Source: Alphaproteobacteria bacterium (lineage in GTDB: Bacteria; Pseudomonadota; Alphaproteobacteria; Bin95). From it: 64,000 nt of DNA. Both the position numbers and the translations under genes were made by a program. Positions 1 to 26,185 of this stretch are shown piece after piece. The stretch covers positions 1,152,001 through 1,216,000 of the forward strand of contig OZ219787.1 in the NCBI GenBank assembly GCA_964291285.2. Direction: 5' to 3'. The first letter of the stretch is position 1. Each line of letters begins with the position of its first letter. A model generated the notes under the pieces. It ran no database searches. It was not told the DNA's origin and saw only the letters and a program-made list of their open reading frames with translations.

Positions 1-391
1 TGCCGAAGTGGGCCCAGTCGACCTGGGCCTGCTCGCCGGGCAGGGCCTTGAGGCGCAGATAGGCCTCGGCCACCGGCCGCGGACGCTCGGGCGCGATCAT
101 GCGCCGGAAGTGGCTCTCGCACCCCCGGTAACCGCGCTCGACCGCCATCCGGTAGAGCCGGCTGGAGGGCAACTTCGGCCAGACCGCCAGGGTCTGGCGG
201 ACGAAGGGCAGGAACGGATCGATCATCGAAGATCTGCGCCGCTTCTCAGGCGTGGGCGCCCCGGCGGCCGCCACCGCGCGCTCGACCGTGCCGTGGTGGA
301 CGCCGAGCTGGCGCGCGATCGTGCCGATCCGCCACTTCTCGGCAAAATACAGCCGCAGGATCTCGGCCCGGGTCTGCTGGTCGATCGCCAT
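1..391 (-). CDS. istA: IS21-family transposase IstA, N-terminal part (runs off window)
   Basis: Manual translation from ATG at 391: MAIDQQTRAEILRLYFAEKWRIGTIARQLGVHHGTVERA...SRLYRMAVERGYRG...LPGEQAQVDWAHFG; HTH plus PGEQAQVDW is typical of IstA. Not in ORF track because there is no stop in the window. Confidence 0.9.
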   Translation of the reverse strand, partial: MAIDQQTRAEILRLYFAEKWRIGTIARQLGVHHGTVERAVAAAGAPTPEKRRRSSMIDPFLPFVRQTLAVWPKLPSSRLYRMAVERGYRGCESHFRRMIAPERPRPVAEAYLRLKALPGEQAQVDWAHFG

Positions 392-392
392 C

Positions 393-827
393 TCACTCCC
401 TTCGCGCCGGGCGCAGGCCCGGATAGACCGCCCGGGCGCAGAACCGCCCGCAGTGATCGCAGCGGAACACTCCGGCGGGACGGTCGGGTCCGAAGGGCCT
501 CCTTCCCGAGCGCCCCGCCGGCATGCCCGCCACAACAGGACGGCGCGGTGAACGGGTCAAAGGGTGATGCGTCACTTTCTGCGCACGGCGCCCCTCCTCA
601 GGCGCACGGACGCGACGGCGCTCGCGGTAGCGCCGCTGGCGTTCGGCATGCTTGTGACGGCCCCGCCGGCTGTTCTGGTAGCGACGCCCGGCAAGGCGCA
701 GCGAGCGCCGCCGCGCCCGGCCGCTGCACGGACGCGAGCAGTAGATGTTGCCGTGGTCGCACCGCCGGCACAGCACAACCTGGCGATGGCACGAAGCGCA
801 GGTGAACAGGCGGGCGGCGTTCCTCAT
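393..827 (-). CDS. Cys-rich basic accessory protein upstream of istA (putative Zn-binding)
   Basis: CxxC-x6-CxxCDxGxxYCxxxC, Arg-rich helix, C-terminal CDHCGRFC; stop lies 1 nt before the istA ATG. Confidence 0.7.
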   Translation of the reverse strand: MRNAARLFTCASCHRQVVLCRRCDHGNIYCSRPCSGRARRRSLRLAGRRYQNSRRGRHKHAERQRRYRERRRVRAPEEGRRAQKVTHHPLTRSPRRPVVAGMPAGRSGRRPFGPDRPAGVFRCDHCGRFCARAVYPGLRPARRE

Positions 828-1208
828 CGCAAAGACCGATGAGAACGGGGTGGACCCACGCCCGAACGCCTACGATACTGCGCATACGGGCCGTGCCTTG
901 CATGGCTCGGGGGGTGCGGCGCCGGTCGTTGCCACCTAGCAAACGGGGCCGGCGCCGCATCGTTCTCAGCAGCCCCAGTCTACCCCCTCGCGCAGCCCGG
1001 CGACCCCCGCCGACAGCGCCAGGACACCCTCCCCTCGGCAGGCGAAAATATCAACGCGACGGGGGCCGGCGACTCCAGTCGGGCTACGCCCTCCTTCCGT
1101 CCCAGGCCCCCGTCACAAACACCGCCGCACCACAATCACTGCGATCATCACGCCCCGCAAAAACGCGCAACGCCAGCAAATAAGCGCCTTTTACGACCGT
1201 CACCTACA

Positions 1209-1343
1209 GCGTTCGAGCCTGCGCCACGCGGCGATGGAAGACACGCTCACGCGGAACCGTTCCGCCGCCTCCCGGAAGCTCAGCCCTTCGGCGACCGTTT
1301 CGAGCACCCGGCGCCTCAGGTCCGGGGAAAGGGGTTTCGGCAT
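1209..1343 (-). pseudogene. IS630-OrfA-like HTH gene (copy 1), truncated by IS21
   Basis: Manual translation MPKPLSPDLRRRVLETVAEGLSFREAAERFRVSVSSIAAWRRLER|; RBS GGGAGG upstream; frame enters the IS21 end and stops. Confidence 0.75.
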
Positions 1344-1373
1344 GTCCGCCGGACCTCCCGCGCCGGCGGGGCC

Positions 1374-1402
1374 GGTTTAGAACATAACGGGAATATTGTA
1401 AA
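1374..1402 (-). promoter_or_regulatory. sigma70-like promoter with LexA (SOS) box
   Basis: Minus strand TTTACA-N17-TAAACC; spacer holds GAAC-ATAACGG-GAAT (+ strand 1380-1394), close to the alphaproteobacterial GAAC-N7-GAAC consensus. Confidence 0.65.
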
Positions 1403-13215: not shown

Positions 13216-13275
13216 GGCGGGGGAAAGACATTGACGCGCTGTTGACCCCGCACCCGGTTGCCGGCTTCTGTCCTG

Positions 13276-14700
13276 CTAGCCAGGCGCCCAAAAGGCGGTC
13301 GTGGAGGGGTCGCGAATTGCCGTGCGGCCAACCATGTAGCAATAGAAACTGGTGGGCGTGAAGTACAAGATCGAACCATCGCCCCAAGGCTCGATGCTGC
13401 CCTGTCGGGTGCGAGTGGTTGCAAGCAGGTGCGCGCTAGGGTGCCGCCTTGCAAATTCCCGAAGGCCTTTCAGCATTCCGGGATTTCTGAAATAGCGGTC
13501 CGACCACTTGACCTCGACGCACCAGTTCGGACTTTGTTGCCTATCGAGAAGCACGATATCCACTTCGCCATTCTGCCAGCGCGCATAGTGAAGGTTGAGG
13601 TCGGCATGGAACCATTGGGCAAAAACCGCGGTCTCCGCAATCGGGCCCATGGCCTCGTCTTCCGCCGTCACGGGGCCGAACAGTGCACAGCGCAAAGTGG
13701 GCGCGGTCACATAGACCTTGAAGGATGTCGTGCGCGTGAAGCGCCGGGCATTGCGGTCGATGCGGTGAACGATCCGGATCAGGAAGGCCGCCTCCAGATA
13801 TTCCAGATAGCGCCGGATAGTCGGCTTCGTAACACCGGAGCGCTGCGATAGCTCGTCGAGCGAGACCTCCTCGGCCGTGTTGAATACCAGGGTCATAAAG
13901 AGGGCATTCAATTCCTGCACGTTCTGAATGCCGTAAAGGCTCGGAAGATCGCGAAGGAGTACCTTGTCAACGATGTCGGCTCCGATATAGCGCGCGGGGT
14001 CGTCACGAATGGCGGGTGACGAAACGGCTTCCGGGAAGCCGCCGAAATTCACATAGTCGATAAAATGATTGTTCAACCCTTCCGGGTCGACAAGGCGGTA
14101 GGACGTATCGGTTACCGGTTCTACAAGCCCTGCGATGCCCTGAAGATCGAGAAATTCGTAGAAGGTAAGGGGAGGCAGCAGGAAGTCCGTGAAACGGCCC
14201 GCGCCCGATTCCATGCTCTTCAGGCGCAGCGCGGCGGCGGCCGACCCGGACACGACGCAGCGAATGCCGGGATGTGCGTCCACGAACGCCTTGAGGTGGC
14301 GTTCCCAGTCGGCCAGATACTGGATTTCGTCCAGGAAGAGCGCGCGGGGACCGTCGGCACTGCCGCTCGCCTCGCGGATTTCCCCGGCTATTTCCTCGAT
14401 GGAGAGCCGCGCATAAAGCGGCTGGTCGAGCGAGGCGTATCCGACGTCCCGGGGCGCGTAATCTGCTGCGGCGAGGAGGCGGTCGATGGCGTGGTGGATC
14501 AGGACGGTCTTGCCGACGCGCCTCGGCCCCATGAGAACCACGGCGCGGCGAACGCCCGTTTCTTCGACGAGTTCGGCGAAGCGCCGGAAATAGGCGCGCG
14601 GCTTCAGTCGGGCGTAGTCCTCCCGGATTCCGCCGCCGTCCCACCAGGGGTTGTCGGCTCTCAGGCGCTGATGCCGTTGGGTTGACGAAATCTCACGCAC
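13276..14700 (-). CDS. AAA+ ATPase (AAA_14 plus DUF4143-like, C-terminal PD-(D/E)XK-like)
   Basis: [20 protein letters not shown], wHTH, EVDIV...VEVKW. Confidence 0.88.
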
Positions 14701-15009
14701 CGCCCGAATGTAGCGTTACCCGCCGCCGAATTCAAGTTAAGCAAAGTCAACTTTCCTTATCGGGAAATCCCCGAAATTATCCATATATTTCAATTGGATA
14801 TAATTACACGAAATACCGTGAACCCGCACGAATCGTGGGAAATCGGCGCTTTCCTGCCTGCTGCCGGCCGCCCGCGTCCGGGCCTGCATTGCCGGCTGCG
14901 GTGGAAACGGCGTCGGTTCCGGGCGGTGTCCAGGGCGCCGGTCGAGCGGACCGGCGGGCCGAGGCCCGTGCCGGAGGAACTGCGCCCGGCGCCGCCCCAG
15001 GCGGGCGCG

Positions 15010-15453
15010 TCATCGCGGCGGGGCTTCCGGCCGCGCCCGGCCGTCCGCCGCAGGGTCCTTCCGGCGGCCGGCGAGGCGCTGTTTGCGTTCGAGGCCGTGG
15101 CGTTTCAGGAAGCGCTGCACCGTCATCGCGCTGAACGCCGCTCCCTCGGCGGCGAGCGCATCGCGCAGCCCGTACATGGAAATCGCCGGCCGCGCCTCCA
15201 GGATGCGGAGGATCCGCTCCCGCTCGGCTTCGATCCGCCACGAGCGGCGGTCGCCGCCCTGCCTGTCGGCCCGGAGCTGTCCGCGCTCGCGGAACCGCCG
15301 CACCCACAGGGCGACGCTGTCCCCGCCCACGTCGTAAAGCCGGCCCGCGGCCCGGGCGCTCATGCCCTTCTCCACCACCGCCGCGACCGCCCGGCGGCGC
15401 AGGTCCTCGCCGACCGCCCGGCCCCGCCGCCGCTCCGCCAATATATCCGTCAC
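15010..15453 (-). CDS. Stand-alone IS630-OrfA-like double-HTH protein (copy 2), no DDE domain
   Basis: DLRRRAVAAV...SARAAGRLYDVG..SVALWVRRFRERG...ILEARPAISMYGLRDALAAEG...QRFLKRHGL; GTG start with GGAGGAG RBS. Confidence 0.75.
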   Translation of the reverse strand: MTDILAERRRGRAVGEDLRRRAVAAVVEKGMSARAAGRLYDVGGDSVALWVRRFRERGQLRADRQGGDRRSWRIEAERERILRILEARPAISMYGLRDALAAEGAAFSAMTVQRFLKRHGLERKQRLAGRRKDPAADGRARPEAPPR

Positions 15454-15595
15454 CGCTCCTCCCTTTCCGCTTCGCCGCCTTGCGGCAGGTTGATGGATAC
15501 TTGCGCCGTTTCCGCGCCGCCTGCATGTCCGTGATTACCCCTCAACTTCTCCGTCACGGCCCTCGCTTCCCCCTTGCAGCCTTGTATCGACTTGA

Positions 15596-16777
<1,182 letters not shown>

Positions 16778-16940
16778 CCGACAACACAGTCGCTCTCCCT
16801 GCGAGCGGCCGCCAGCCGGCCGCCGGGAGAGGCGCGTCTGTACAGGACGGGGAGCGATGCGCGGCGCCCGTGCAACCGCCGCTCCCCGTCTGTGCCGTCA
16901 GGTCATGGTCCCGTTCGCTCCCGCCGGATGCTTCTTTCTA

Positions 16941-16973
16941 GAATGAATATAGAACAAATGAAGTGCAATGCAA
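16941..16973 (-). promoter_or_regulatory. sigma70-like promoter with LexA box, facing HTH copy 2
   Basis: Minus strand TTGCAT-N16-TATATT; + strand GAAT-GAATATA-GAAC at 16941-16955. Confidence 0.62.
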
Positions 16974-20860: not shown

Positions 20861-21904
20861 ATGCGCATCCTCGCCGGCCTCGTCCTCATCGCCCTTGCCG
20901 CCCTGCCCGTGCCCGCGCCCGCCGCCGATGCGGGGCCCGACCAGTATTGGCGCAAGGCCTGGCCCAACACGGATTTCAGCCGCCATTCGGTGCCGTTCGA
21001 GGAGATCGCGTCCGGCGGCGTCGCGCGCGACCAGATCCCGCCGATCGACGATCCCGTCTTCACCTCCGTTGCGGAGGCGGAGAAGCTGATCGCGCCGACC
21101 GAGCCGGTGATTTCGCTGACGGTGGACGGCGAGCGCCGCGCCTATCCGCTCGCGATCCTGATCTGGCACGAGATCGTGAACGACACCATCGCCGGCAGGC
21201 CCGTGGCGGTGACTTATTGCCCGCTCTGCGATGCGGCGCTGGTGTTCGACCGGCGGGTCGCGGGCCGGGTGCTCGATTTCGGCACGACGGGGCTGCTGCG
21301 CTTCTCGGACCTCGTGATGTGGGACCGGCAGACGGAAAGCTGGTGGCAGCAGTTCCTGGGCGAGGCGATGGTGGGGGAGCTGACGGGCGAGCGGCTCACC
21401 ATGCTGCCCTCGCGCGTCGAGAGCTTCGCGCGCTTCGCCGCCGCCGCGCCGGACGGAACGGTGCTGATGCCGAACGACCCGAACATGCGCAGCTACGGCT
21501 CCAACCCCTATGCCGGCTATGACGGCGCGCACTGGCCCTTCCTCTTCCGGGGCGCCTATCCGCTGGCGGCGGTGCCGCCGCTGGCGCGCGTCGCCATGGT
21601 CGGCAAGCGGGCCTGGACGGTGGACCTGCTGAAGGAGAAGAAGCGCATCGAGGCGGGCGACCTCGTGCTGGAATGGGCGCCCGGCCAGAACTCGGCGCTC
21701 GACAAGGGGGTGATCCGCGAGGGCCGCGACATCGGCAATGTCACCGTGCAGCGCCGCGCCGCCGCCGGCGGGCTGGTCGATGCGGTCCACGACGTGACCT
21801 TCGCCTTCGCCTTCCTCGCCTTCGTGCCGGACGGCGTCATCCACACCATCTGCGGCCCGTATGTGAAGCCGGAAACCCTGCCGGAGAACCTCGCCTGCGG
21901 GTAG
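20861..21904 (+). CDS. Exported DUF3179-like protein
   Basis: Signal peptide; GGVARDQIPPIDDP, WHEIVND, TYCPLC, DRQTESWWQQ. Confidence 0.85.
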   Translation: MRILAGLVLIALAALPVPAPAADAGPDQYWRKAWPNTDFSRHSVPFEEIASGGVARDQIPPIDDPVFTSVAEAEKLIAPTEPVISLTVDGERRAYPLAILIWHEIVNDTIAGRPVAVTYCPLCDAALVFDRRVAGRVLDFGTTGLLRFSDLVMWDRQTESWWQQFLGEAMVGELTGERLTMLPSRVESFARFAAAAPDGTVLMPNDPNMRSYGSNPYAGYDGAHWPFLFRGAYPLAAVPPLARVAMVGKRAWTVDLLKEKKRIEAGDLVLEWAPGQNSALDKGVIREGRDIGNVTVQRRAAAGGLVDAVHDVTFAFAFLAFVPDGVIHTICGPYVKPETLPENLACG

Positions 21905-21945
21905 GGGCCGGTGGGGCAGGCGGGGCGAGGGATCTACCGAGCCGC

Positions 21946-21977
21946 TTGACAGCTACCTGTTTGTTCCCTATATATTC
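21946..21977 (+). promoter_or_regulatory. sigma70 promoter with LexA box, facing HTH copy 3
   Basis: TTGACA-N17-TATATA; GTTC-CCTATAT-ATTC (21963-21977) overlaps the -10. Confidence 0.72.
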
Positions 21978-22158
21978 CGTTTGACGAAGAAAACGGACCC
22001 ATCGGAGCCATGACCTGAACCAAGGGCGGCGGCCGCACGAGGCCGCATTGCGCCCCAGCGAATTCGGACCCGCAATGCCGGCGGCGCAGGCCGGGCGGCA
22101 AGCGGGAGGGGTGCGGCCGCCATGCAGGCCCTGGGGGGACGAAACGGCAGCAAATTGC

Positions 22159-22245
22159 GGTCAACCTGAGCCGAAAAAGGCCGTTTGTGGTGGTCGACCT
22201 GAGCCGAAAAGGGCCGTTTGTGGCGGTCAACCTGAGCCGAAAAGG
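22159..22245 (+). repeat. 33-bp tandem repeat, ~2.6 copies
   Basis: GGTC(A/G)ACCTGAGCCGAAAA at 22159, 22192 and 22225. Confidence 0.9.
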
Positions 22246-22255
22246 AGAAGAGACG

Positions 22256-22693
22256 ATGACGAACGAAGTGGCGGACGGAACGGCGGGCGCGCCGGCGGCG
22301 GTCCTGCCGGTGCCGAGACAGGGCCGGGCGGTGAACGAGCAACTGCGGGGCCTGGTGCTGGCGGCCGTGCTGCATGAGGGCCTGACCGGCGGCGCGGCAG
22401 CGCGGCGGTTCGGGCTGGGCCGGGCGACGGTCAACCGGTGGGTGCGGCAGTTTCGCGAGACCGGCCAGGTGCGGGCCGGCGGGCAGGGGGGCAGCACCGC
22501 GCGGCTGGAGCGTTCGCGGGGGCTGATCCTCCGCATCCTGGTCGCGCGGCCGGACATTTCCATGTACGGATTGTGCGACATGCTCGCCGCCGAGGGGGTG
22601 AAAGCCAATCCGTTCACGCTGCAGCGCTTCCTGAAACGCCACGGCCTGGACCGCAAGAGCCGCCGCGCCCGGCGGCGGGGGAGCGGGGGCTAA
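22256..22693 (+). CDS. Stand-alone IS630-OrfA-like double-HTH protein (copy 3), no DDE domain
   Basis: AAARRFGLGRATVNRWVRQFRETG...ILVARPDISMYGLCDMLAAEG...QRFLKRHGL; AGGAG RBS. Confidence 0.75.
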   Translation: MTNEVADGTAGAPAAVLPVPRQGRAVNEQLRGLVLAAVLHEGLTGGAAARRFGLGRATVNRWVRQFRETGQVRAGGQGGSTARLERSRGLILRILVARPDISMYGLCDMLAAEGVKANPFTLQRFLKRHGLDRKSRRARRRGSGG

Positions 22694-22729
22694 CGGCGGG
22701 CGCTTGCGCCGGGGCCGCGGGCCGGGCGG

Positions 22730-22981
22730 CTAACAGGCCCGGTTGCGCAGTTCGCGGTCGGAGACGGTATCGCCGGCGTCCAGGGCGCGGCGTCCTTCCT
22801 CAAGGGCGTAGCGGCCCCCGCCGCTCAGCGGCTCGTCGGCCTCGGGGGCGAGGGAGAGCGCTCGAACGAACGGGTGCCCGGACCCGGACAGGAATTCGAG
22901 ATAACGCTCGGCGACCGGGAGTTCGCTGGCAGGAAGCGCGTCCACCAGCTGATGCAGTCGCTCCCCAGGCTCGGCTTCCAT
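22730..22981 (-). CDS. Orphan antitoxin-like small protein
   Basis: ERLHQLVDALPASEL...YLEFL...APEADEPLS...ALEEGRRALDAGDTVS; no adjacent toxin seen. Confidence 0.55.
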   Translation of the reverse strand: MEAEPGERLHQLVDALPASELPVAERYLEFLSGSGHPFVRALSLAPEADEPLSGGGRYALEEGRRALDAGDTVSDRELRNRAC

Positions 22982-23144
22982 GGCGCTCCCTCCGTGGCGG
23001 CTGCCGTCCCGAAGCTCTCTCGCCACTTGGAACGACGAAATTTGCTTCCGCCAAAATTTCAGCTTGCAGCTATCTCACGTCCAATATTAGCATGTGTATA
23101 AATCGGTTTTGTAATGCCTATCATCGGAGGAGGTTCGGGGTACA

Positions 23145-24245
23145 GTGGATGGAGGGGGAAATCCGCTGGCCGGCATCCGGGAGGAGCTTGCCGACGAATA
23201 TGCGCAGCCGACAGCGATGCCACAGCGCAGCGCACGCGCTCCGACCGCAGGGTGTCTATTCAGCGGCATGGGGGGATTTGCCTCCGGGCTGGTCGCCTCC
23301 GGCTTCACCGTCTCGTGGGCTTCCGACAACAATGCCGACGCGTGCGCCGCGTTCTCTCATCGCCATCCGGGCGTCCGCATCCTTCAATGTGATGTACAAG
23401 ATTTGCGAGCCGACGCTGACGGCCTTGCCCCAGTAGACGTCTTGGCCGCTGGCTTTCCGTGCCAAAGCTTCTCTCAGGCTGGCGGACGAAAGGGGTTTGA
23501 CGACGACCGAGGTAAAGCCTTTTTCGAAATACCCCGTCTACTCAGCGAGCTTGCGCCACAACATCGACCGAAGTTTTTGATTCTAGAGAATGTAGAGTAT
23601 ATCCTCTACGGCAATGATGGGCGCTGGTTTGATACCATCCAGCGCGAACTCCGCCGGGTCGGCTATTGGTTTCGCCGTCAATCCTGCTGGCAAGTCAATG
23701 TCAAGGATGCAACGGCTATTCCGCAGGACCGCTCTCGCGTCTTTATGGTTGCGGCTTCTCGCGAACACTATAGTCACAATCCGTTCAAACCTCCAATCAT
23801 TCAGGTAAATAGAGCAGCGACAGATGTAAACATATTCTTGGATCGTTCAAAAAGAGCGAATGACGATGATTATTTGCCAAAAGATAACAAATATTGTAAA
23901 ATGATAGAAACTAAAATACTGGAAGGAGAATCTTCTGAAAATTTATATCAATTGAGGCGATCTTATGTTCGAGAAAAAAGAGGGAAACAGTGCCCTACAT
24001 TAACGGCGAATATGGGAATTGGTGGCCATAATGTGCCATTCATCAAGGACTCGTGGGGTATTCGTCGCCTTACTGTAGAAGAAATTGCCCGGCTTCAAGG
24101 TTTTGATACTTCGGTTTCACTCTTTCCAGACTTAACGTCGCAGGCACAATATAGGTTGTTAGGAAATGCTGTCTGCCCAGAGCTTGCCCGTCTAGCAGCC
24201 AAAGAATGCTTTCCACACTTGACACTGGATGAGGAAATATCGTGA
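23145..24245 (+). CDS. DNA (cytosine-5)-methyltransferase
   Basis: Motifs LFSGMGG, GFPCQSFS, LENV, QDRSRVF, RRLT..EIARLQGF, LGNAV. Confidence 0.95.
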   Translation: MDGGGNPLAGIREELADEYAQPTAMPQRSARAPTAGCLFSGMGGFASGLVASGFTVSWASDNNADACAAFSHRHPGVRILQCDVQDLRADADGLAPVDVLAAGFPCQSFSQAGGRKGFDDDRGKAFFEIPRLLSELAPQHRPKFLILENVEYILYGNDGRWFDTIQRELRRVGYWFRRQSCWQVNVKDATAIPQDRSRVFMVAASREHYSHNPFKPPIIQVNRAATDVNIFLDRSKRANDDDYLPKDNKYCKMIETKILEGESSENLYQLRRSYVREKRGKQCPTLTANMGIGGHNVPFIKDSWGIRRLTVEEIARLQGFDTSVSLFPDLTSQAQYRLLGNAVCPELARLAAKECFPHLTLDEEIS

Positions 24246-26185
24246 CAAGAATCGGATGGAAATTTCCCCCCACGGGTGGCGGAGTGGAAGGTGGTTACAA
24301 TCATGCCGGCATGACTCACTTCCAAGGTGCTAGATATCCAAGTCTGGCACGGGAAGTGATCCAAAATTCCCTTGATGCACGCAAATCCGAAGCCCGCCCC
24401 GTTCATGTGACTTTCGAGATTCAACAGCTTCTACGGGATCAGATGCCCGGCTATGAGGAGTTTCTGGATATAATTAATCGTTGTATTGAAGCATCTGACA
24501 ATGACGAAAGGGCACGATCTGAATTGGAATTAGAGAAGAAAGTAGTGCAGCGTAAAAAAATCATTTTTCTACGTATAGTGGATAGAGAAACAACAGGACT
24601 TAGTGGTAGTAAGTGGGCAGCGCTGTTGAAGAAGGAGGGATTGCCGGATAAAGAAAGTGCTACTGCGGGTGGCAGCTTCGGTATAGGAAAGAACGCTCCT
24701 TTTGCGATGTCACCATTGAGGACGGTGTATTACTGGTCTCGGTTTGAAGCGGGCTCGGAAGTGTTGGAGAAATTTCAGGGTAAGGCTATACTGATTTCGC
24801 ATCTAGATGATGATAAGGAGGATACACAGAGTATCGGGTTCTTTGGCAGTAAGGACAAATGCTTGGAACTTTCAGATGCACAAATCCCAGAAGCAATTCG
24901 TATGATAGAAACTCCGGACAGGGGAATAGGAACTTCTCTTTGGATACCGGGATTCGATGGGTCGGCAATTTGGAGAGATAAGATTGCCGGGAGTGTAGTG
25001 GAAAATTTCTTTTGTGCTGTTGACGAAGCGAAACTCGAGGTCTTGGTTGATTCAGATTCTTATACGACGACTGATCTTCTTTCTATTGAAGCAGCGAGCT
25101 TGGGAGATTGGTTTGAACATCTTGTTAACAATGAAGCCCATTCCGAGGACAATCTTCGTTTGAGGCGGGCGAGGGCATTTTGGGAAGTTATGAAGGCGCC
25201 GATGGTTATAAAAGAGAAAGAGGATAAGGATTTGGGCCATTGCAAGTTATGGATAACGGTGAGTGATAAATACGAAGATGTTGGACGTGTTGGATTAATT
25301 CGATTGAATGGGATGTTGATAACCGATCAGCAGGAGGGGTTACGGCAGTTTCGACGCACGATGCCGTTCGCGGCAGTATGTCGATTCGAGTCCGACAAGG
25401 GTAACGAGTTGCTTCGTGGGATGGAGAATCCGAGGCACGATCAGTTTCAGCCGGAATTTTTGCCGACGGAGGATCGCAGCCGCGGACGGGCAGCGCTCAC
25501 GCGGATTACGAGATGGATTCGGGAGGAGATCAACAAGGTAGCGATGCCAGAGGTAAGTGGTGAAGCGATTGCTATTACGGAACTCGCCAGGCTGCTCCCA
25601 GACCTCGAACCAGATGACGGTCTTGGCGCGGTGCCCAGCGAGGACGGAGAGCGACCGCTCGAAGGCGCGCCCCTTATTCAGCTAAAGCCAATTCGGCCGC
25701 CGCGTCAAAGGCAGGAGGTGCCGGACGACGGCGTGGTCGAGGGAGGCCAGGAGGAAGGCGACGACGAGAACGGCGGGACGGTAGGCGGCGGAGGGGGGAG
25801 TGACAATGGTGACGGTGGCGGAGAAACGGGGAGTGGGACAGAGACGCTTGTTTTCGGTCCTGTCCAAATTGAGAACAGTAGATGTTTGCCGTCGCCCGAG
25901 GATAAGAAACGGTTGCAAGTCCTGTTTACCCCTAAATCCCGCGGGACCGGCGCGTCTCTGTCGCTTGTAGAGGCGGGTGATTCGGATTTTATCCAAAGAA
26001 ATGATCTCCAAGTGGTAAAGCCGAACGGGGAAAGAGTAAAACTGTCGGAATTTCACCTCGAATTCATAGCCAATGAACGAGTGAGTATTTTGATCGAGGG
26101 CGACGAACCTGTTGCACAGCGTGCATGGCGGATCATGGTGAAGCAACCCAAGGAGCATAAGCCGGCCGCAGAGGGACAGAAATAA
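24242..26185 (+). CDS. GHKL (Hsp90/MORC-like) ATPase-domain protein
   Basis: AREVIQNSLDA, DRETTGL, GGSFGIGK; acidic/Gly-rich linker before a beta-rich C-terminus; overlaps the MTase stop. Confidence 0.75.
   Translation: MTRIGWKFPPTGGGVEGGYNHAGMTHFQGARYPSLAREVIQNSLDARKSEARPVHVTFEIQQLLRDQMPGYEEFLDIINRCIEASDNDERARSELELEKKVVQRKKIIFLRIVDRETTGLSGSKWAALLKKEGLPDKESATAGGSFGIGKNAPFAMSPLRTVYYWSRFEAGSEVLEKFQGKAILISHLDDDKEDTQSIGFFGSKDKCLELSDAQIPEAIRMIETPDRGIGTSLWIPGFDGSAIWRDKIAGSVVENFFCAVDEAKLEVLVDSDSYTTTDLLSIEAASLGDWFEHLVNNEAHSEDNLRLRRARAFWEVMKAPMVIKEKEDKDLGHCKLWITVSDKYEDVGRVGLIRLNGMLITDQQEGLRQFRRTMPFAAVCRFESDKGNELLRGMENPRHDQFQPEFLPTEDRSRGRAALTRITRWIREEINKVAMPEVSGEAIAITELARLLPDLEPDDGLGAVPSEDGERPLEGAPLIQLKPIRPPRQRQEVPDDGVVEGGQEEGDDENGGTVGGGGGSDNGDGGGETGSGTETLVFGPVQIENSRCLPSPEDKKRLQVLFTPKSRGTGASLSLVEAGDSDFIQRNDLQVVKPNGERVKLSEFHLEFIANERVSILIEGDEPVAQRAWRIMVKQPKEHKPAAEGQK

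What the first reader, a model, noticed from the sequence alone, without database searches (positions are those of the whole stretch)
21946..22693. Candidate new system: LexA-box promoter + conserved structured leader + DDE-less IS630-derived HTH protein
Seen: this locus and the locus at 15010-16973 (minus strand, ignoring the IS110) share an architecture: sigma70 promoter overlapped by a LexA-type box, a 280-360 nt leader, then a ~145-aa double-HTH protein sharing ILRILxARPxISMYGLxDxLAAEG...QRFLKRHGL. Neither has a downstream DDE ORF, a slippery A-run, or terminal IRs that I could find. A third related HTH with the same promoter/box type is at 1209-1402. Known: IS630 OrfA is the DNA-binding half of the transposase; the alphaproteobacterial LexA box is GTTC-N7-GTTC. 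Inference: a dispersed family of domesticated, damage-inducible DNA-binding proteins paired with a conserved RNA, for example transposition repressors or an RNP-based non-autonomous element. Diverged but intact ORFs with good RBSs suggest selection rather than decay.
Basis: partly seen in the sequence, partly recalled or inferred. Interest (0 to 1): 0.85.

Follow-up and report, generated by a model that had tools for sequence, protein, structure and literature searches.

The report
SOS-controlled transposase-derived HTH gene family
This locus is one of about forty scattered copies of a small gene cassette (a DNA-damage-type promoter, a conserved leader with a tiny start-stop reading frame, and a DNA-binding protein descended from a transposase that has lost its cutting domain); the cassettes are inherited like ordinary genes in one uncultured bacterial genus, and their job is still unknown.

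Summary
The window's genome carries 44 copies of a ~0.7-kb module: a TTGACA-type promoter, a GTTC-N7-GTTC box, a 250-350 nt leader and a 134-160 aa two-HTH ORF. None has its own DDE domain, terminal inverted repeats or target duplication. The box matches the operators in front of this genome's own lexA and recA, so LexA control is a well-founded inference.

The protein has a paired-domain-like fold. Its nearest named relatives are the N-termini of IS630 transposases, at 40-47% identity.

The modules are not active mobile elements. The closest module-only pairs are 85-88% identical, whereas resident IS630 and IS110 copies are 99-100% identical. At least 23 of 44 copies sit at syntenic sites in other species. 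ORFs stay intact but evolve fast: ortholog dN/dS has a median of 0.45, and 0.8-1.2 at this locus.

The leader is conserved as sequence blocks. The strongest is a mini-ORF, ATG-ACC-TGA, present in 96 of 106 leaders. No consensus secondary structure was found, there is no Rfam match, and nothing supports an RNP.

Verdict: a lineage-specific, domesticated, probably SOS-inducible DNA-binding paralog family with a new kind of leader. Its function is unknown. Interest is moderately high.

The parts
21946..21951 (+). Locus A: -35-like hexamer TTGACA. A T-rich stretch upstream is common in the family.
   Evidence: Read. Conserved in the family alignments. The tool's own promoter scan does not call it.
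21963..21977 (+). Locus A: LexA-type box GTTCCCTATATATTC (GTTC-N7-ATTC), overlapping the -10-like TATATA at 21969-21974.
   Evidence: It has the same form as the recA box GTTCCTGAAATATTC and is close to the lexA operator. The box matches at 7/8 or better in 63 of 106 leaders.
21980..22255 (+). Locus A: about 276-nt leader, from the inferred transcription start to the HTH start codon.
   Evidence: Homologous to the leaders of other copies and of orthologs in three other species. The start point is inferred from the promoter and has not been measured.
22010..22018 (+). Locus A: mini-ORF ATG ACC TGA (Met-Thr-stop) behind a purine-rich GGAG. It is the most conserved block of the leader.
   Evidence: 96 of 106 leaders have it, and all 96 stop after 2-4 codons; MT* accounts for 67. 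It has the highest information content in the leader profile. Of 44 genomic ATGACCTGA sites, 20 lie in modules and 2 in solo leaders.
22029..22046 (+). Locus A: hairpin GCGGCC-GCACGA-GGCCGC, 11 nt after the mini-ORF stop.
   Evidence: Seen in the folds. Hairpins of different sequence sit at the same place in other subfamilies by eye. Mean z for this window is -0.63. No alignment-based covariation was obtained.
22104..22121 (+). Locus A: conserved purine-rich/GGTGCG block, GGGAGGGGTGCGGCCGCC.
   Evidence: Second most conserved leader block. In locus B and one other copy the IS110 is inserted within this block.
22157..22245 (+). Locus A: 33-nt tandem repeat, 2.7 copies, specific to this copy.
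   Evidence: Orthologs in other species have fewer units.
22256..22693 (+). Locus A: 145-aa two-HTH (paired-domain-like) protein with no DDE domain.
   Evidence: The fold was modelled on the locus B protein with a family alignment. Orthologs in L108, L075 and L130 are intact but only 59-65% identical.
16941..16973 (-). Locus B: -35-like TTGCAT (16973-16968) and box GTTCTATATTCATTC (16955-16941).
   Evidence: Syntenic orthologs keep it.
16898..16906 (-). Locus B: mini-ORF ATGACCTGA.
15659..16799 (-). IS110-family element, 1141 bp, inserted into the leader of locus B. The transposase ORF at 15746-16777 lies on the + strand.
   Evidence: Pfam DEDD_Tnp_IS110 and Transposase_20. There are 13 copies at 99.4-100% identity, 2 of them in module leaders. 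The uninterrupted ortholog L027/L055 defines the insertion site.
15010..15453 (-). Locus B: 147-aa two-HTH protein.
   Evidence: Orthologs are 76-100% identical at syntenic sites.
1200..1402 (-). Third copy, of the leaderless subfamily: TTTACA, box ATTCCCGTTATGTTC (1394-1380), and an ORF truncated after 47 aa.
   Evidence: It resembles the six leaderless paralogs that carry a box about 52 nt before the ATG.

Best explanation
The locus is one member of a genus-specific paralog family of domesticated genes. An IS630/Tc1-type transposase N-terminal DNA-binding domain (paired-like, two HTH) lost its DDE domain once. It gained a strong promoter overlapped by a LexA operator and, in the main clade, a long leader. 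It then multiplied to roughly 10-45 copies per genome, and these copies have since been inherited vertically.

Proposed working:
1. Inferred: LexA sits on GTTC-N7-GTTC across the -10 and keeps the unit off.
2. Inferred: DNA damage removes LexA, and a leader-plus-HTH mRNA is made.
3. Inferred, weaker: ribosomes load on the conserved AUG-ACC-UGA mini-ORF just upstream of a hairpin. This gates mRNA folding, stability or Rho access, and so gates HTH output.
4. Fold shown, target unknown: the protein binds DNA as a catalytically dead transposase head.

The most likely role is modulating mobile-DNA or other DNA transactions during the SOS response. An example would be competing for IS630-type ends, or autoregulating at its own leader.

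My odds: DNA-binding 0.9; LexA control of most copies 0.75; leader is cis-regulatory 0.6; mini-ORF is translated 0.4; anti-transposition role 0.25.
For: Family and anatomy:
- 44 copies in the genome.
- Homology runs only from about 10-45 nt before the -35 to the ORF stop.
- A leader profile hits 32 sites, 28 of them upstream of a copy.
- ORFs are 125-160 aa with strong SDs in 40 of 44 copies.
- A conserved core is shared across copies.

LexA:
- The operators of lexA and recA in the same genome have the same motif.
- 12 of 20 AT-spacer GTTC-N7-GTTC sites are in modules.
- The box matches at 7/8 or better in 63 of 106 leaders.
- The six leaderless paralogs also carry a box.
- Four resident IS630 left ends have none.
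- The alphaproteobacterial motif is given in PMC3091678 (passage read).

Domestication rather than an active element:
- A DDE lies near 1 of 44 copies, and that one is a separate IS.
- There is no TSD or TIR signal: mean longest shared string 6.6 against a control of 6.6.
- The closest module-only pairs are 85-88% identical, against 99-100% for IS110 copies and identical DDE_3 bit scores among resident IS630 copies.
- At least 23 of 44 copies share a flank, and 10 share both flanks, with loci of other species.
- All 46 ortholog ORFs not cut by a contig end are intact, of 47 compared.
- In a rooted tree the 43 ORFs form one clade apart from three resident IS630 N-termini.
- One complete genome has 9 modules and no DDE_3 match.

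Fold and ancestry:
- Pax5, Pax6, SETMAR, Mos1 and Tc3 are the best structural matches.
- Plasmid relatives are IS630 transposases.
- More distant profile hits include 311-314 aa proteins with DDE_3.

Mini-ORF: present in 96 of 106 leaders and the top conserved block.
Against: - There is no expression, LexA-binding or DNA-target data.
- dN/dS is high: paralog median 0.79, ortholog median 0.45, and 0.81-1.17 at locus A. NG86 on GC-rich codons may distort both values.
- The box is degenerate or lost in 20 of 106 aligned leaders (score 6/8 or lower), and in 23 more the box region could not be aligned. It is also lost in whole subclades.
- The SD-like purines sit only about 2 nt from the mini-ORF AUG. 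This is poor spacing for initiation (read; the optimum is recalled).
- The 6-nt variants (MTWT and similar) arise automatically from duplicating GACCTG, so they say nothing about reading-frame selection.
- How a unit without ends multiplied 40-fold is unexplained.
- HTH and DDE_3 copy numbers are not tightly linked: one complete genome has 30 DDE_3 matches but only 2 HTH hits, which look like true IS630 OrfAs.
Confidence: 0.55

Rival explanations
1. The modules are relics or non-autonomous derivatives of IS630 elements (OrfA-only copies). They would be mobilised in trans, or be slowly decaying, with no host function.
For: - The N-terminal domain is homologous to IS630 transposases.
- Copy number varies from 0 to 44 among 17 genomes of the genus.
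- One module site is precisely empty in three species.
- dN/dS is high.
- A few copies are truncated or frameshifted.
Against: - There are no TIRs or TSDs, and DDE remnants are absent from 43 of 44 loci.
- No recent copies exist, while true IS copies are 99-100% identical.
- Many copies are syntenic across species with intact ORFs.
- All copies share a promoter and leader that four resident IS630 left ends lack.
- Nine modules persist in a complete genome with no DDE_3 match.
Confidence: 0.15
2. The conserved leader is a functional RNA partner of the protein (an RNP) or a stand-alone sRNA or riboswitch.
For: - Leader blocks are as conserved as the ORF.
- The leader is tightly linked to the HTH: 28 of 32 profile hits lie upstream of a copy.
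- A hairpin of changing sequence follows the mini-ORF in many subfamilies by eye. The window z is -0.63.
Against: - No Rfam family matches.
- RNAalifold finds no consensus on 60 sequences, and only 5 non-covarying pairs on 14.
- Whole-leader z-scores are -0.58 and -1.40 for locus A and about 0 for other windows.
- There is no terminator on the + strand.
- The 3' half of the leader varies in length and sequence.
Confidence: 0.1
3. The GTTC-N7-GTTC box and/or the ATGACCTGA block are operators for the HTH proteins themselves (family-wide autoregulation at the DNA level), not LexA or RNA signals.
For: - Both blocks are conserved as sequence rather than structure.
- The second HTH (TVQRFLKRHGL) is nearly invariant, so a common site is plausible.
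- ATGACCTGA is not enriched outside modules: 22 other sites against about 17 expected.
Against: The box is the same motif as at lexA and recA, so LexA is the simpler reader. For the ATGACCTGA block nothing argues against a DNA role.
Confidence: 0.2

Closest known systems
IS630-family transposase N-terminal domain / OrfA (NCBIfam NF033545; Pfam HTH_23, HTH_28, HTH_32, HTH_Tnp_Tc3_2)
   Same: It has the same bipartite HTH architecture. IS630 is the best NCBIfam hit, covering positions 1-123 of the 299-position model. The protein is 40-47% identical to the N-termini of annotated IS630 transposases on plasmids of Komagataeibacter, Acetobacter, Rhizobium and others.
   Different: - The score of 45-56 bits is below the 100-bit cut-off.
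- There is no DDE_3, no TIRs and no TSD.
- The module has its own promoter with a LexA-type box and a long leader that four resident IS630 copies lack.
- Copies are old and syntenic rather than recent.
Domesticated Tc1/mariner DNA-binding domains in eukaryotes (Pax paired domain, SETMAR)
   Same: These are the best sequence and fold matches among solved structures: Pax8, Prd, Pax6 and Pax5 at E 1e-5 to 5e-4. Foldseek gives Pax5 and Pax6 probability 1.00 with TM about 0.5, and also lists the SETMAR-TIR complex, Mos1 and Tc3. In both cases a transposase head is kept without catalysis.
   Different: This is a bacterial, multi-copy family (up to 44 per genome) under an SOS-type operator. The model is of only medium confidence (pLDDT 73, pTM 0.41). 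That Pax derives from transposases is recalled, not tested here.
Truncated-transposase or OrfA inhibitors of transposition (IS1 InsA, IS911 OrfA, Tn5 Inh, P-element KP; names recalled)
   Same: In both, a DNA-binding part of a transposase is made without the catalytic part. This is the mechanism I favour as a function.
   Different: Those inhibitors are encoded inside their own element. Here the genes are free-standing, diverged, and persist in a genome with no DDE_3 match. No binding to IS ends has been shown. My literature search listed no IS630 example; I saw listings only.
LexA regulon genes of Alphaproteobacteria (GTTC-N7-GTTC / GAAC-N7-GAAC SOS box)
   Same: The same direct-repeat motif overlaps the promoter, as at lexA and recA of this genome. 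The motif is stated in PMC3091678 (passage read). SOS control of mobile-element genes is known for integron integrases (PMC3108266; listing and start of abstract only).
   Different: Dozens of paralogous operators sit in front of one gene family, outnumbering the classical SOS genes found with the strict motif.
Bacterial 'start-stop' / minimal ORFs (Ribo-RET study, bioRxiv 10.1101/520783; passages read)
   Same: Both are a tiny ORF behind an SD-like sequence that cannot make a useful peptide and is thought to tune expression of the host gene.
   Different: Those 14 E. coli cases lie inside genes and have the stop immediately after the start. Here a 2-4 codon ORF lies in a 5' leader, is conserved in 96 of 106 copies, and precedes a hairpin. 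Its translation is untested.

Membership tests
IS630 family transposase / insertion sequence | N-terminal bipartite HTH DNA-binding domain | tested here: met
   Pfam HTH_23, HTH_28, HTH_32 and HTH_Tnp_Tc3_2. NF033545 positions 1-123 are matched. Plasmid IS630 transposases are 40-47% identical.
IS630 family transposase / insertion sequence | DDE (DDE_3) catalytic domain in the same or an overlapping frame | tested here: not met
   None of the PF13358 matches adjoins a copy except next to C3:951481. tblastn of six resident DDE proteins hits 1 of 44 loci, and that hit is a separate IS630. No longer relatives were found at E<=1e-5 (weak evidence).
IS630 family transposase / insertion sequence | Terminal inverted repeats and a target-site duplication | tested here: not met
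   Tested on 19 copies. Direct repeats across the ends have a mean longest shared string of 6.6 against a control of 6.6; inverted repeats give 6.9 against 6.65. An empty site in three species shows no scar. A 2-bp TA duplication could not be judged.
IS630 family transposase / insertion sequence | NCBIfam curated score (100 bits) | tested here: not met
   45.2 and 55.6 bits.
Alphaproteobacterial LexA (SOS) regulon | GTTC-N7-GTTC direct repeat in the promoter region | tested here: met
   The match is 7/8 or better in 63 of 106 leaders, and in 21 of 32 in the own genome. Locus A scores 7/8 and locus B 7/8.
Alphaproteobacterial LexA (SOS) regulon | Same motif at lexA and recA of the same genome | tested here: met
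   lexA has GAACCAATATAGAAC plus GTTCGTATAAGGAAC; recA has GTTCCTGAAATATTC.
Alphaproteobacterial LexA (SOS) regulon | LexA binding and induction by DNA damage | not testable with these tools
   No RNA holder was listed for the locus. The organism is known only from assemblies.
Paired-domain-like (Tc1/mariner type) DNA-binding fold | Two three-helix bundles joined by a linker | tested here: met
   The AF2 model has helices 16-57 and 69-118 with pLDDT 73. Foldseek finds Pax5 and Pax6 at probability 1.00. The PDB profile search finds Pax and Sleeping Beauty.
Known RNA families (Rfam 15) | Match to a curated covariance model | tested here: not met
   No hit at gathering scores in the window. Only two chance-level hits appear at E<=10 in 21800-22800.
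Structured cis-regulatory RNA (riboswitch or attenuator) | Conserved helices with compensatory changes; a terminator hairpin with a U-run | tested here: inconclusive
   RNAalifold gives 0 pairs on 60 sequences and 5 pairs with no double changes on 14. The z-score is -0.63 for the window after the mini-ORF and about 0 elsewhere. No + strand terminator is found. The hairpins seen by eye do not align in register.
Start-stop / minimal upstream ORF | Conserved start codon followed within a few codons by a stop, behind an SD-like sequence | tested here: met
   96 of 106 leaders have it: MT* 67, MIWT* 10, MIWI* 7, MTWT* 6, others 6. Translation was not testable.
MITE-like / non-autonomous mobile element | Many near-identical copies with defined ends | tested here: not met
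   The closest module-only pairs are 85-88% identical. The single 99.9% pair lies in a duplication of at least 2.7 kb near two contig ends. No defined ends were found.

The most novel reading that the evidence does not exclude
The family is an SOS-triggered, heritable repertoire of fast-diversifying, transposase-derived DNA-binding proteins. Each paralog would recognise the ends of a different past or present IS630/Tc1-type invader, or another DNA target. Together they would restrain or redirect DNA rearrangement when the cell is damaged. Output would be gated by a previously undescribed start-stop-uORF leader. In effect this would be a bacterial counterpart of the repeated domestication of Tc1/mariner DNA-binding heads seen in eukaryotes, but organised as a multi-gene defence or regulatory array.
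Probability: 0.15. Interest if true: 0.85.

Novelty: new variant of a known kind. Interest (0 to 1): 0.6.

Why it matters
Domestication of transposase DNA-binding domains is well documented in eukaryotes and rare in bacteria. Here a whole paralog family of up to 44 genes, each with its own SOS-type operator, appears to have been kept for as long as the species of a genus have diverged.

If LexA control is real, most strong LexA operators in these genomes belong to this family. That would reshape how the SOS response of this lineage should be viewed, both in what it induces and in how much LexA is titrated.

The leader offers a clean natural test case for a conserved 2-codon upstream ORF in bacteria. 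The family also gives a tractable set of diverged paired-like domains for studying how DNA specificity evolves.

If instead the genes prove nearly neutral, the case is still a useful example of how intact ORFs can persist in GC-rich genomes.

Tried and rejected
- **Rfam.** Nothing relevant was found.

- **Consensus RNA structure.**
  - RNAalifold on 60 leaders predicted no pairs, and on 14 close leaders predicted 5 weak pairs with no double changes.
  - Subfamily alifold runs in a script gave large GC-driven structures that I could not evaluate.
  - Folds of locus A gave z of -0.58 and -1.40.
  - I did not build a covariance model, because the hairpins do not align in register.

- **Coding potential of the leader beyond the mini-ORF.** No 3-periodicity is seen in the conservation profile.

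- **TSD/TIR search.** It gave no signal.

- **Leader versus IS630 left ends.** nhmmer found no hit at E<=10 in four resident left ends, and blastn-short gave only chance-level hits. My pattern failed to pick up the left ends of L035-L039, so those were not compared.

- **LexA-like boxes in front of resident IS630 copies.** There are none in the 4 distinct left ends read at 6 copies.

- **Longer, fused relatives.** None scored at E<=1e-5 among 8000 scored candidates, which the tool itself calls weak evidence.

- **PHROGs and PADLOC.** PHROGs gave only weak 'transposase' families. PADLOC gave nothing for the HTH proteins.

- **Recurrent neighbours.** 61 downstream ORFs from 80 loci are heterogeneous. 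PIN and FitA-like each occur in 3 of 61, and no DDE family is among the 25 listed of 60 families. I dropped 19 loci that had no confident downstream ORF.

- **Link between module number and IS630 number.** The counts are not tightly coupled, and fragmented assemblies under-count IS copies.

- **Expression.** No RNA holder was listed for the locus, and I did not lay reads.

- **Protein binding.** Complex prediction was not used, because I make no binding claim.

- **Literature.** Five searches listed no description of LexA-boxed IS630-derived HTH families or of this leader. The library lacks most subscription journals, and supplementary files were not consulted.

- **Counts I trimmed.**
  - From the 46 rows I dropped two extra pieces of the tandem locus C3:2006596-2007357, leaving 44.
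  - The tree left out one ORF shorter than 100 aa (C3:1148915, 73 aa) and cut the 232-aa ORF of C3:2006596 to its first 135 residues.
  - The ortholog dN/dS median uses 35 of 47 pairs (aa identity above 70%, dS above 0.02).
Full report
**What is at the coordinates**

- TTGACA lies at 21946-21951.
- After 17 nt comes TATATA at 21969-21974.
- The box GTTCCCTATATATTC spans 21963-21977.
- A leader of about 276 nt follows.
- GGAG lies at 22244-22247, and the ORF runs 22256-22693 (145 aa).

Locus B on the minus strand has the same parts.
- TTGCAT lies at 16973-16968.
- GTTCTATATTCATTC lies at 16955-16941.
- The leader is interrupted by a 1141-bp IS110 at 15659-16799.
- The ORF runs 15453-15010 (147 aa).

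The third copy has TTTACA, the box ATTCCCGTTATGTTC at 1394-1380, and an ORF at 1343-1200 that stops after 47 aa, so it is truncated.

The tool's strict sigma-70 scan does not call the locus A promoter, because the -10 ends in A. 'Promoter' is therefore a reading of consensus hexamers that recur across the family, not a measured start.

**The protein**

- Pfam finds HTH_23, HTH_28, HTH_32 and HTH_Tnp_Tc3_2.
- NCBIfam's best model is IS630 transposase, positions 1-123 of 299, at 45-56 bits against a cut-off of 100. IS481 comes next.
- A profile of 30 family members matches Pax paired domains and the Sleeping Beauty PAI and RED subdomains among solved structures.
- An AlphaFold model (pLDDT 73, pTM 0.41) shows two three-helix bundles.
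- Foldseek ranks Pax5 and Pax6 first (probability 1.00, TM about 0.5) and also lists the SETMAR-TIR complex, Mos1 and Tc3.
- In cultured bacteria the nearest sequences are the N-termini of annotated IS630 transposases on plasmids, at 40-47% identity. One that I checked is a 949-nt CDS.
- A profile search over 1.84 billion representatives finds 8157 proteins at E<=1e-3 but only 15 at E<=1e-30. Among the distant hits are 311-314 aa proteins with DDE_3.
- A word-based search for longer relatives found none at 1e-5 (weak evidence).

The protein is therefore a paired-like transposase head, most probably of IS630 descent. It is not a member of the transposase family as that family is defined.

**A large family**

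The window's genome has 5 contigs, 6.1 Mb and 68% GC. It holds 44 places that encode this protein at 40-70% identity to locus B.

No copy has its own DDE domain.
- The 33 DDE_3 matches in the genome lie elsewhere, except for one IS630 about 420 nt downstream of copy C3:951481. That IS has its own OrfA.
- tblastn with six resident DDE-bearing proteins against all 44 loci (-800 to +2500) hits only that one.

All-against-all blastn shows that homology between copies runs from just upstream of the -35 to just past the stop codon, about 0.7 kb, and no further.

40 of 44 ORFs are 125-160 aa with GGAG-type ribosome-binding sites. Of the other four, two have uncertain starts, one is a tandem or fused form, and one is truncated. 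One further copy is frameshifted near its C-terminus.

**The box**

The genome's single lexA gene is preceded by GAACCAATATAGAAC and GTTCGTATAAGGAAC. The reverse complement of the first is the exact 15-mer found in one module. recA is preceded by GTTCCTGAAATATTC, the GTTC-N7-ATTC form of locus A. GTTC-N7-GTTC and GAAC-N7-GAAC are the published alphaproteobacterial LexA motifs (PMC3091678, passage read).

- Genome-wide there are 111 GTTC-N7-GTTC sites against about 106 expected. Only 20 of them have an AT-rich spacer, and 12 of those 20 are in modules.
- In a profile alignment of 106 leaders (32 from this genome, 74 from 80 loci of related genomes), the box matches at 7/8 or better in 63, at 5-6/8 in 19, and at 2/8 in 1. 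In 23 the region has indels or is missing.
- Two subclades have lost the box while keeping the leader.
- The six most divergent paralogs have no long leader but carry a 6-7/8 box about 52 nt before the ATG. The truncated third copy of the window is of this type.
- Four resident IS630 left ends have no such box.

LexA control is thus a strong inference for most copies and seems older than the leader. It has not been shown.

**The leader**

A DNA profile of the promoter plus the first 215 nt finds 32 sites in the genome, 28 of them directly upstream of an HTH copy. Of the other four:
- one has lost its ORF;
- one is cut by an IS1595-like element;
- one is only a similar promoter in front of a DNA methyltransferase gene (these three);
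- one is a fragment.

The most conserved block of the whole non-coding part is ATGACCTGA, about 40 nt after the box.
- 96 of 106 leaders have it, and all 96 read as a 2-4 codon ORF ending in TGA: MT* 67, MIWT* 10, MIWI* 7, MTWT* 6, others 6.
- The longer forms are what a duplication of GACCTG produces, so they do not prove selection on the frame.
- The 9-mer occurs 44 times in the genome: 20 in modules, 2 in solo leaders, and 22 inside genes, against about 17 expected by chance.

A hairpin follows the stop codon in most subfamilies, with unrelated sequences by eye. At locus A it is GCGGCC-GCACGA-GGCCGC at 22029-22046. That window folds somewhat better than shuffles: mean z is -0.63 over 84 non-redundant leaders, against -0.12, -0.02 and -0.46 for other windows.

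Beyond that I found no evidence of conserved structure.
- There is no Rfam match.
- RNAalifold predicts no pairs on 60 leaders, and five non-covarying pairs on 14.
- Whole-leader z-scores are unremarkable.
- No terminator lies on the sense strand.

A second conserved block, purine-rich followed by GGTGCG (22104-22121 in locus A), is where an active IS110 has inserted in locus B and in one other copy. That IS110 has 13 copies at 99.4-100% identity.

**Evolutionary behaviour**

Fourteen of 16 other species of the same genus have matches, with 0 to 39 per genome. Outside the genus, 3 of 24 genomes give single weak matches. The hits in low-copy genomes and in other genera have upstream motifs typical of real IS630 left ends.

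All 80 best loci in public genomes come from uncultured assemblies labelled Alphaproteobacteria, except one contig labelled Chloroflexi that is syntenic with locus A.

Many copies are orthologous across species.
- Locus B shares both flanks with loci in three other species, and locus A shares flanks with three.
- Overall at least 23 of 44 copies share one flank, and 10 share both, with the limited set of fetched loci.

No module-only pair within the genome is closer than about 85-88%. The one 99.9% pair lies in a duplication of at least 2.7 kb near two contig ends. Real IS elements in the same genome are 99-100% identical.

For one copy, three species have a clean empty site with 23-102 nt in place of about 600. 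There is no scar and no flanking repeat. Across 19 copies neither direct nor inverted repeats at the ends exceed mismatched controls.

A maximum-likelihood tree rooted with three resident IS630 N-termini puts the 43 ORFs in one clade. That clade is split into a 37-member leader-bearing group and the 6 leaderless box-bearing genes. Support for the larger group is low, at 0.41.

**Selection**

- By the Nei-Gojobori method, paralog pairs give a median dN/dS of 0.79.
- Syntenic ortholog pairs give 0.45 (IQR 0.36-0.59; 35 of 47 pairs kept). Locus B gives 0.33-0.45, and locus A gives 0.81-1.17 at dN 0.25-0.31.
- Flanking genes in the same genome pairs give 0.06-0.36 at dN 0.014-0.061.

The HTH genes therefore change two to six times faster at the protein level than their neighbours. 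This is either relaxed constraint or diversification. Yet all 46 ortholog ORFs not cut by a contig end are open (112-197 aa), indels are in frame, and a core of residues is invariant. The recognition helix of the first HTH varies most, while the second HTH (TVQRFLKRHGL) is nearly fixed. I read this as retained coding function under weak or mixed selection. It is not proof of adaptation.

**Neighbours**

- Downstream ORFs of 61 related loci belong to 60 different Pfam families. The most frequent are PIN and FitA-like antitoxin, each in 3 of 61.
- 38 of the 61 are convergent with the module. The module is therefore a stand-alone transcription unit.
- Module and DDE_3 counts per genome are not tightly linked. 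One complete genome has 9 modules and no DDE_3 match. Another has 30 DDE_3 matches and only 2 HTH hits of the IS type.

**What it most likely is**

It is a once-domesticated IS630-type DNA-binding head that acquired an SOS operator and then a leader. It expanded in the ancestor of part of this genus and has since been kept, lost or diversified gene by gene.

What it does is open. I favour damage-induced DNA binding that modulates mobile-DNA or repair-related transactions, with the mini-ORF and hairpin as a translational or stability gate. The alternatives are listed with odds in the rival explanations.

**Comparison with what is known**

- It works like a truncated-transposase regulator and looks like a paired domain.
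- It fails the membership tests for an IS630 element: no DDE, no ends, and a sub-threshold score.
- It matches no RNA family.
- Five literature searches returned no description of such a family or leader. The nearest concept for the mini-ORF is the set of 'start-stop' sites mapped in E. coli (bioRxiv 10.1101/520783, passages read).

**Limits**

- There are no expression data: no RNA holder was listed.
- Promoter, start site, LexA binding, mini-ORF translation and the DNA target are all inferred.
- The dN/dS values come from a simple method on GC-rich codons, and possible gene conversion among paralogs was not examined.

Noticed in passing
window 15659-16799 (and 12 other places in the genome): An active IS110-family element has 13 copies at 99.4-100% identity. 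It inserts at a GGGAG^GTGCG-like site. Two copies lie in HTH-module leaders. Four others lie in a different short repeat that carries the same site, with flanks such as ...gccatttttgaaaac...ccgac | GGTGCGTCCGC...cgcgcaatcaggcgcg. This looks like sequence-guided targeting of a conserved motif.
   Followed up: partly
window 13276-14700 (- strand): A 474-aa ATPase matches the PADLOC candidate defence family PDC-S01 (E 7e-51). The stretch 13217-14738 is missing from the syntenic loci of three other species, so it is an insertion right beside module B.
   Followed up: partly
window 23145-26185 (+ strand): By its motifs (my reading, no Pfam run), the ORF at 23145-24245 is a cytosine-5 DNA methyltransferase-like gene. 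It overlaps the start of a 647-aa protein that matches the PADLOC candidate PDC-M33A (E 6e-98). This is a probable restriction/defence island just downstream of module A.
   Followed up: partly
window 22730-23026 (- strand): A 98-aa ORF, convergent with module A, has no Pfam, NCBIfam or PADLOC match. The region is conserved (about 70% DNA identity) in the syntenic contig L130.
   Followed up: no
L130 (VXPS01000337.1): This contig is filed under a Chloroflexi assembly. It is syntenic with locus A: 93% identity in the upstream gene, and it carries the module. It is probably mis-binned alphaproteobacterial DNA.
   Followed up: no
G000:C1:958147-958240 (outside the window): A promoter of the same build (TTGACA... 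GTTCGTTTTAAGTTC) precedes a DNA methyltransferase-like ORF (TSPPY motif). This suggests further non-classical members of the putative LexA regulon. A similar box precedes a 220-aa ORF at C1:992432 that I did not annotate.
   Followed up: no
flanks of several modules, e.g. upstream of G000:C3:586906 and C1:1067578, downstream of C3:2039329: A short dispersed repeat, CCTGAGCCTGTCGAAGGGG, recurs next to modules. A related GCCGAAAAGG hairpin unit forms the 33-nt tandem array at window 22157-22245.
   Followed up: no
G000:C3:2006596-2007357: Three HTH matches lie in tandem in one long open frame (232 aa or more). This is a possible fused or duplicated member of the leaderless subfamily.
   Followed up: no
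window 2-535 (- strand): An ORF running off the window's start has an HTH_23 match and, from memory, an IS21 IstA-like N-terminus. This region of the genome is rich in insertion sequences.
   Followed up: no
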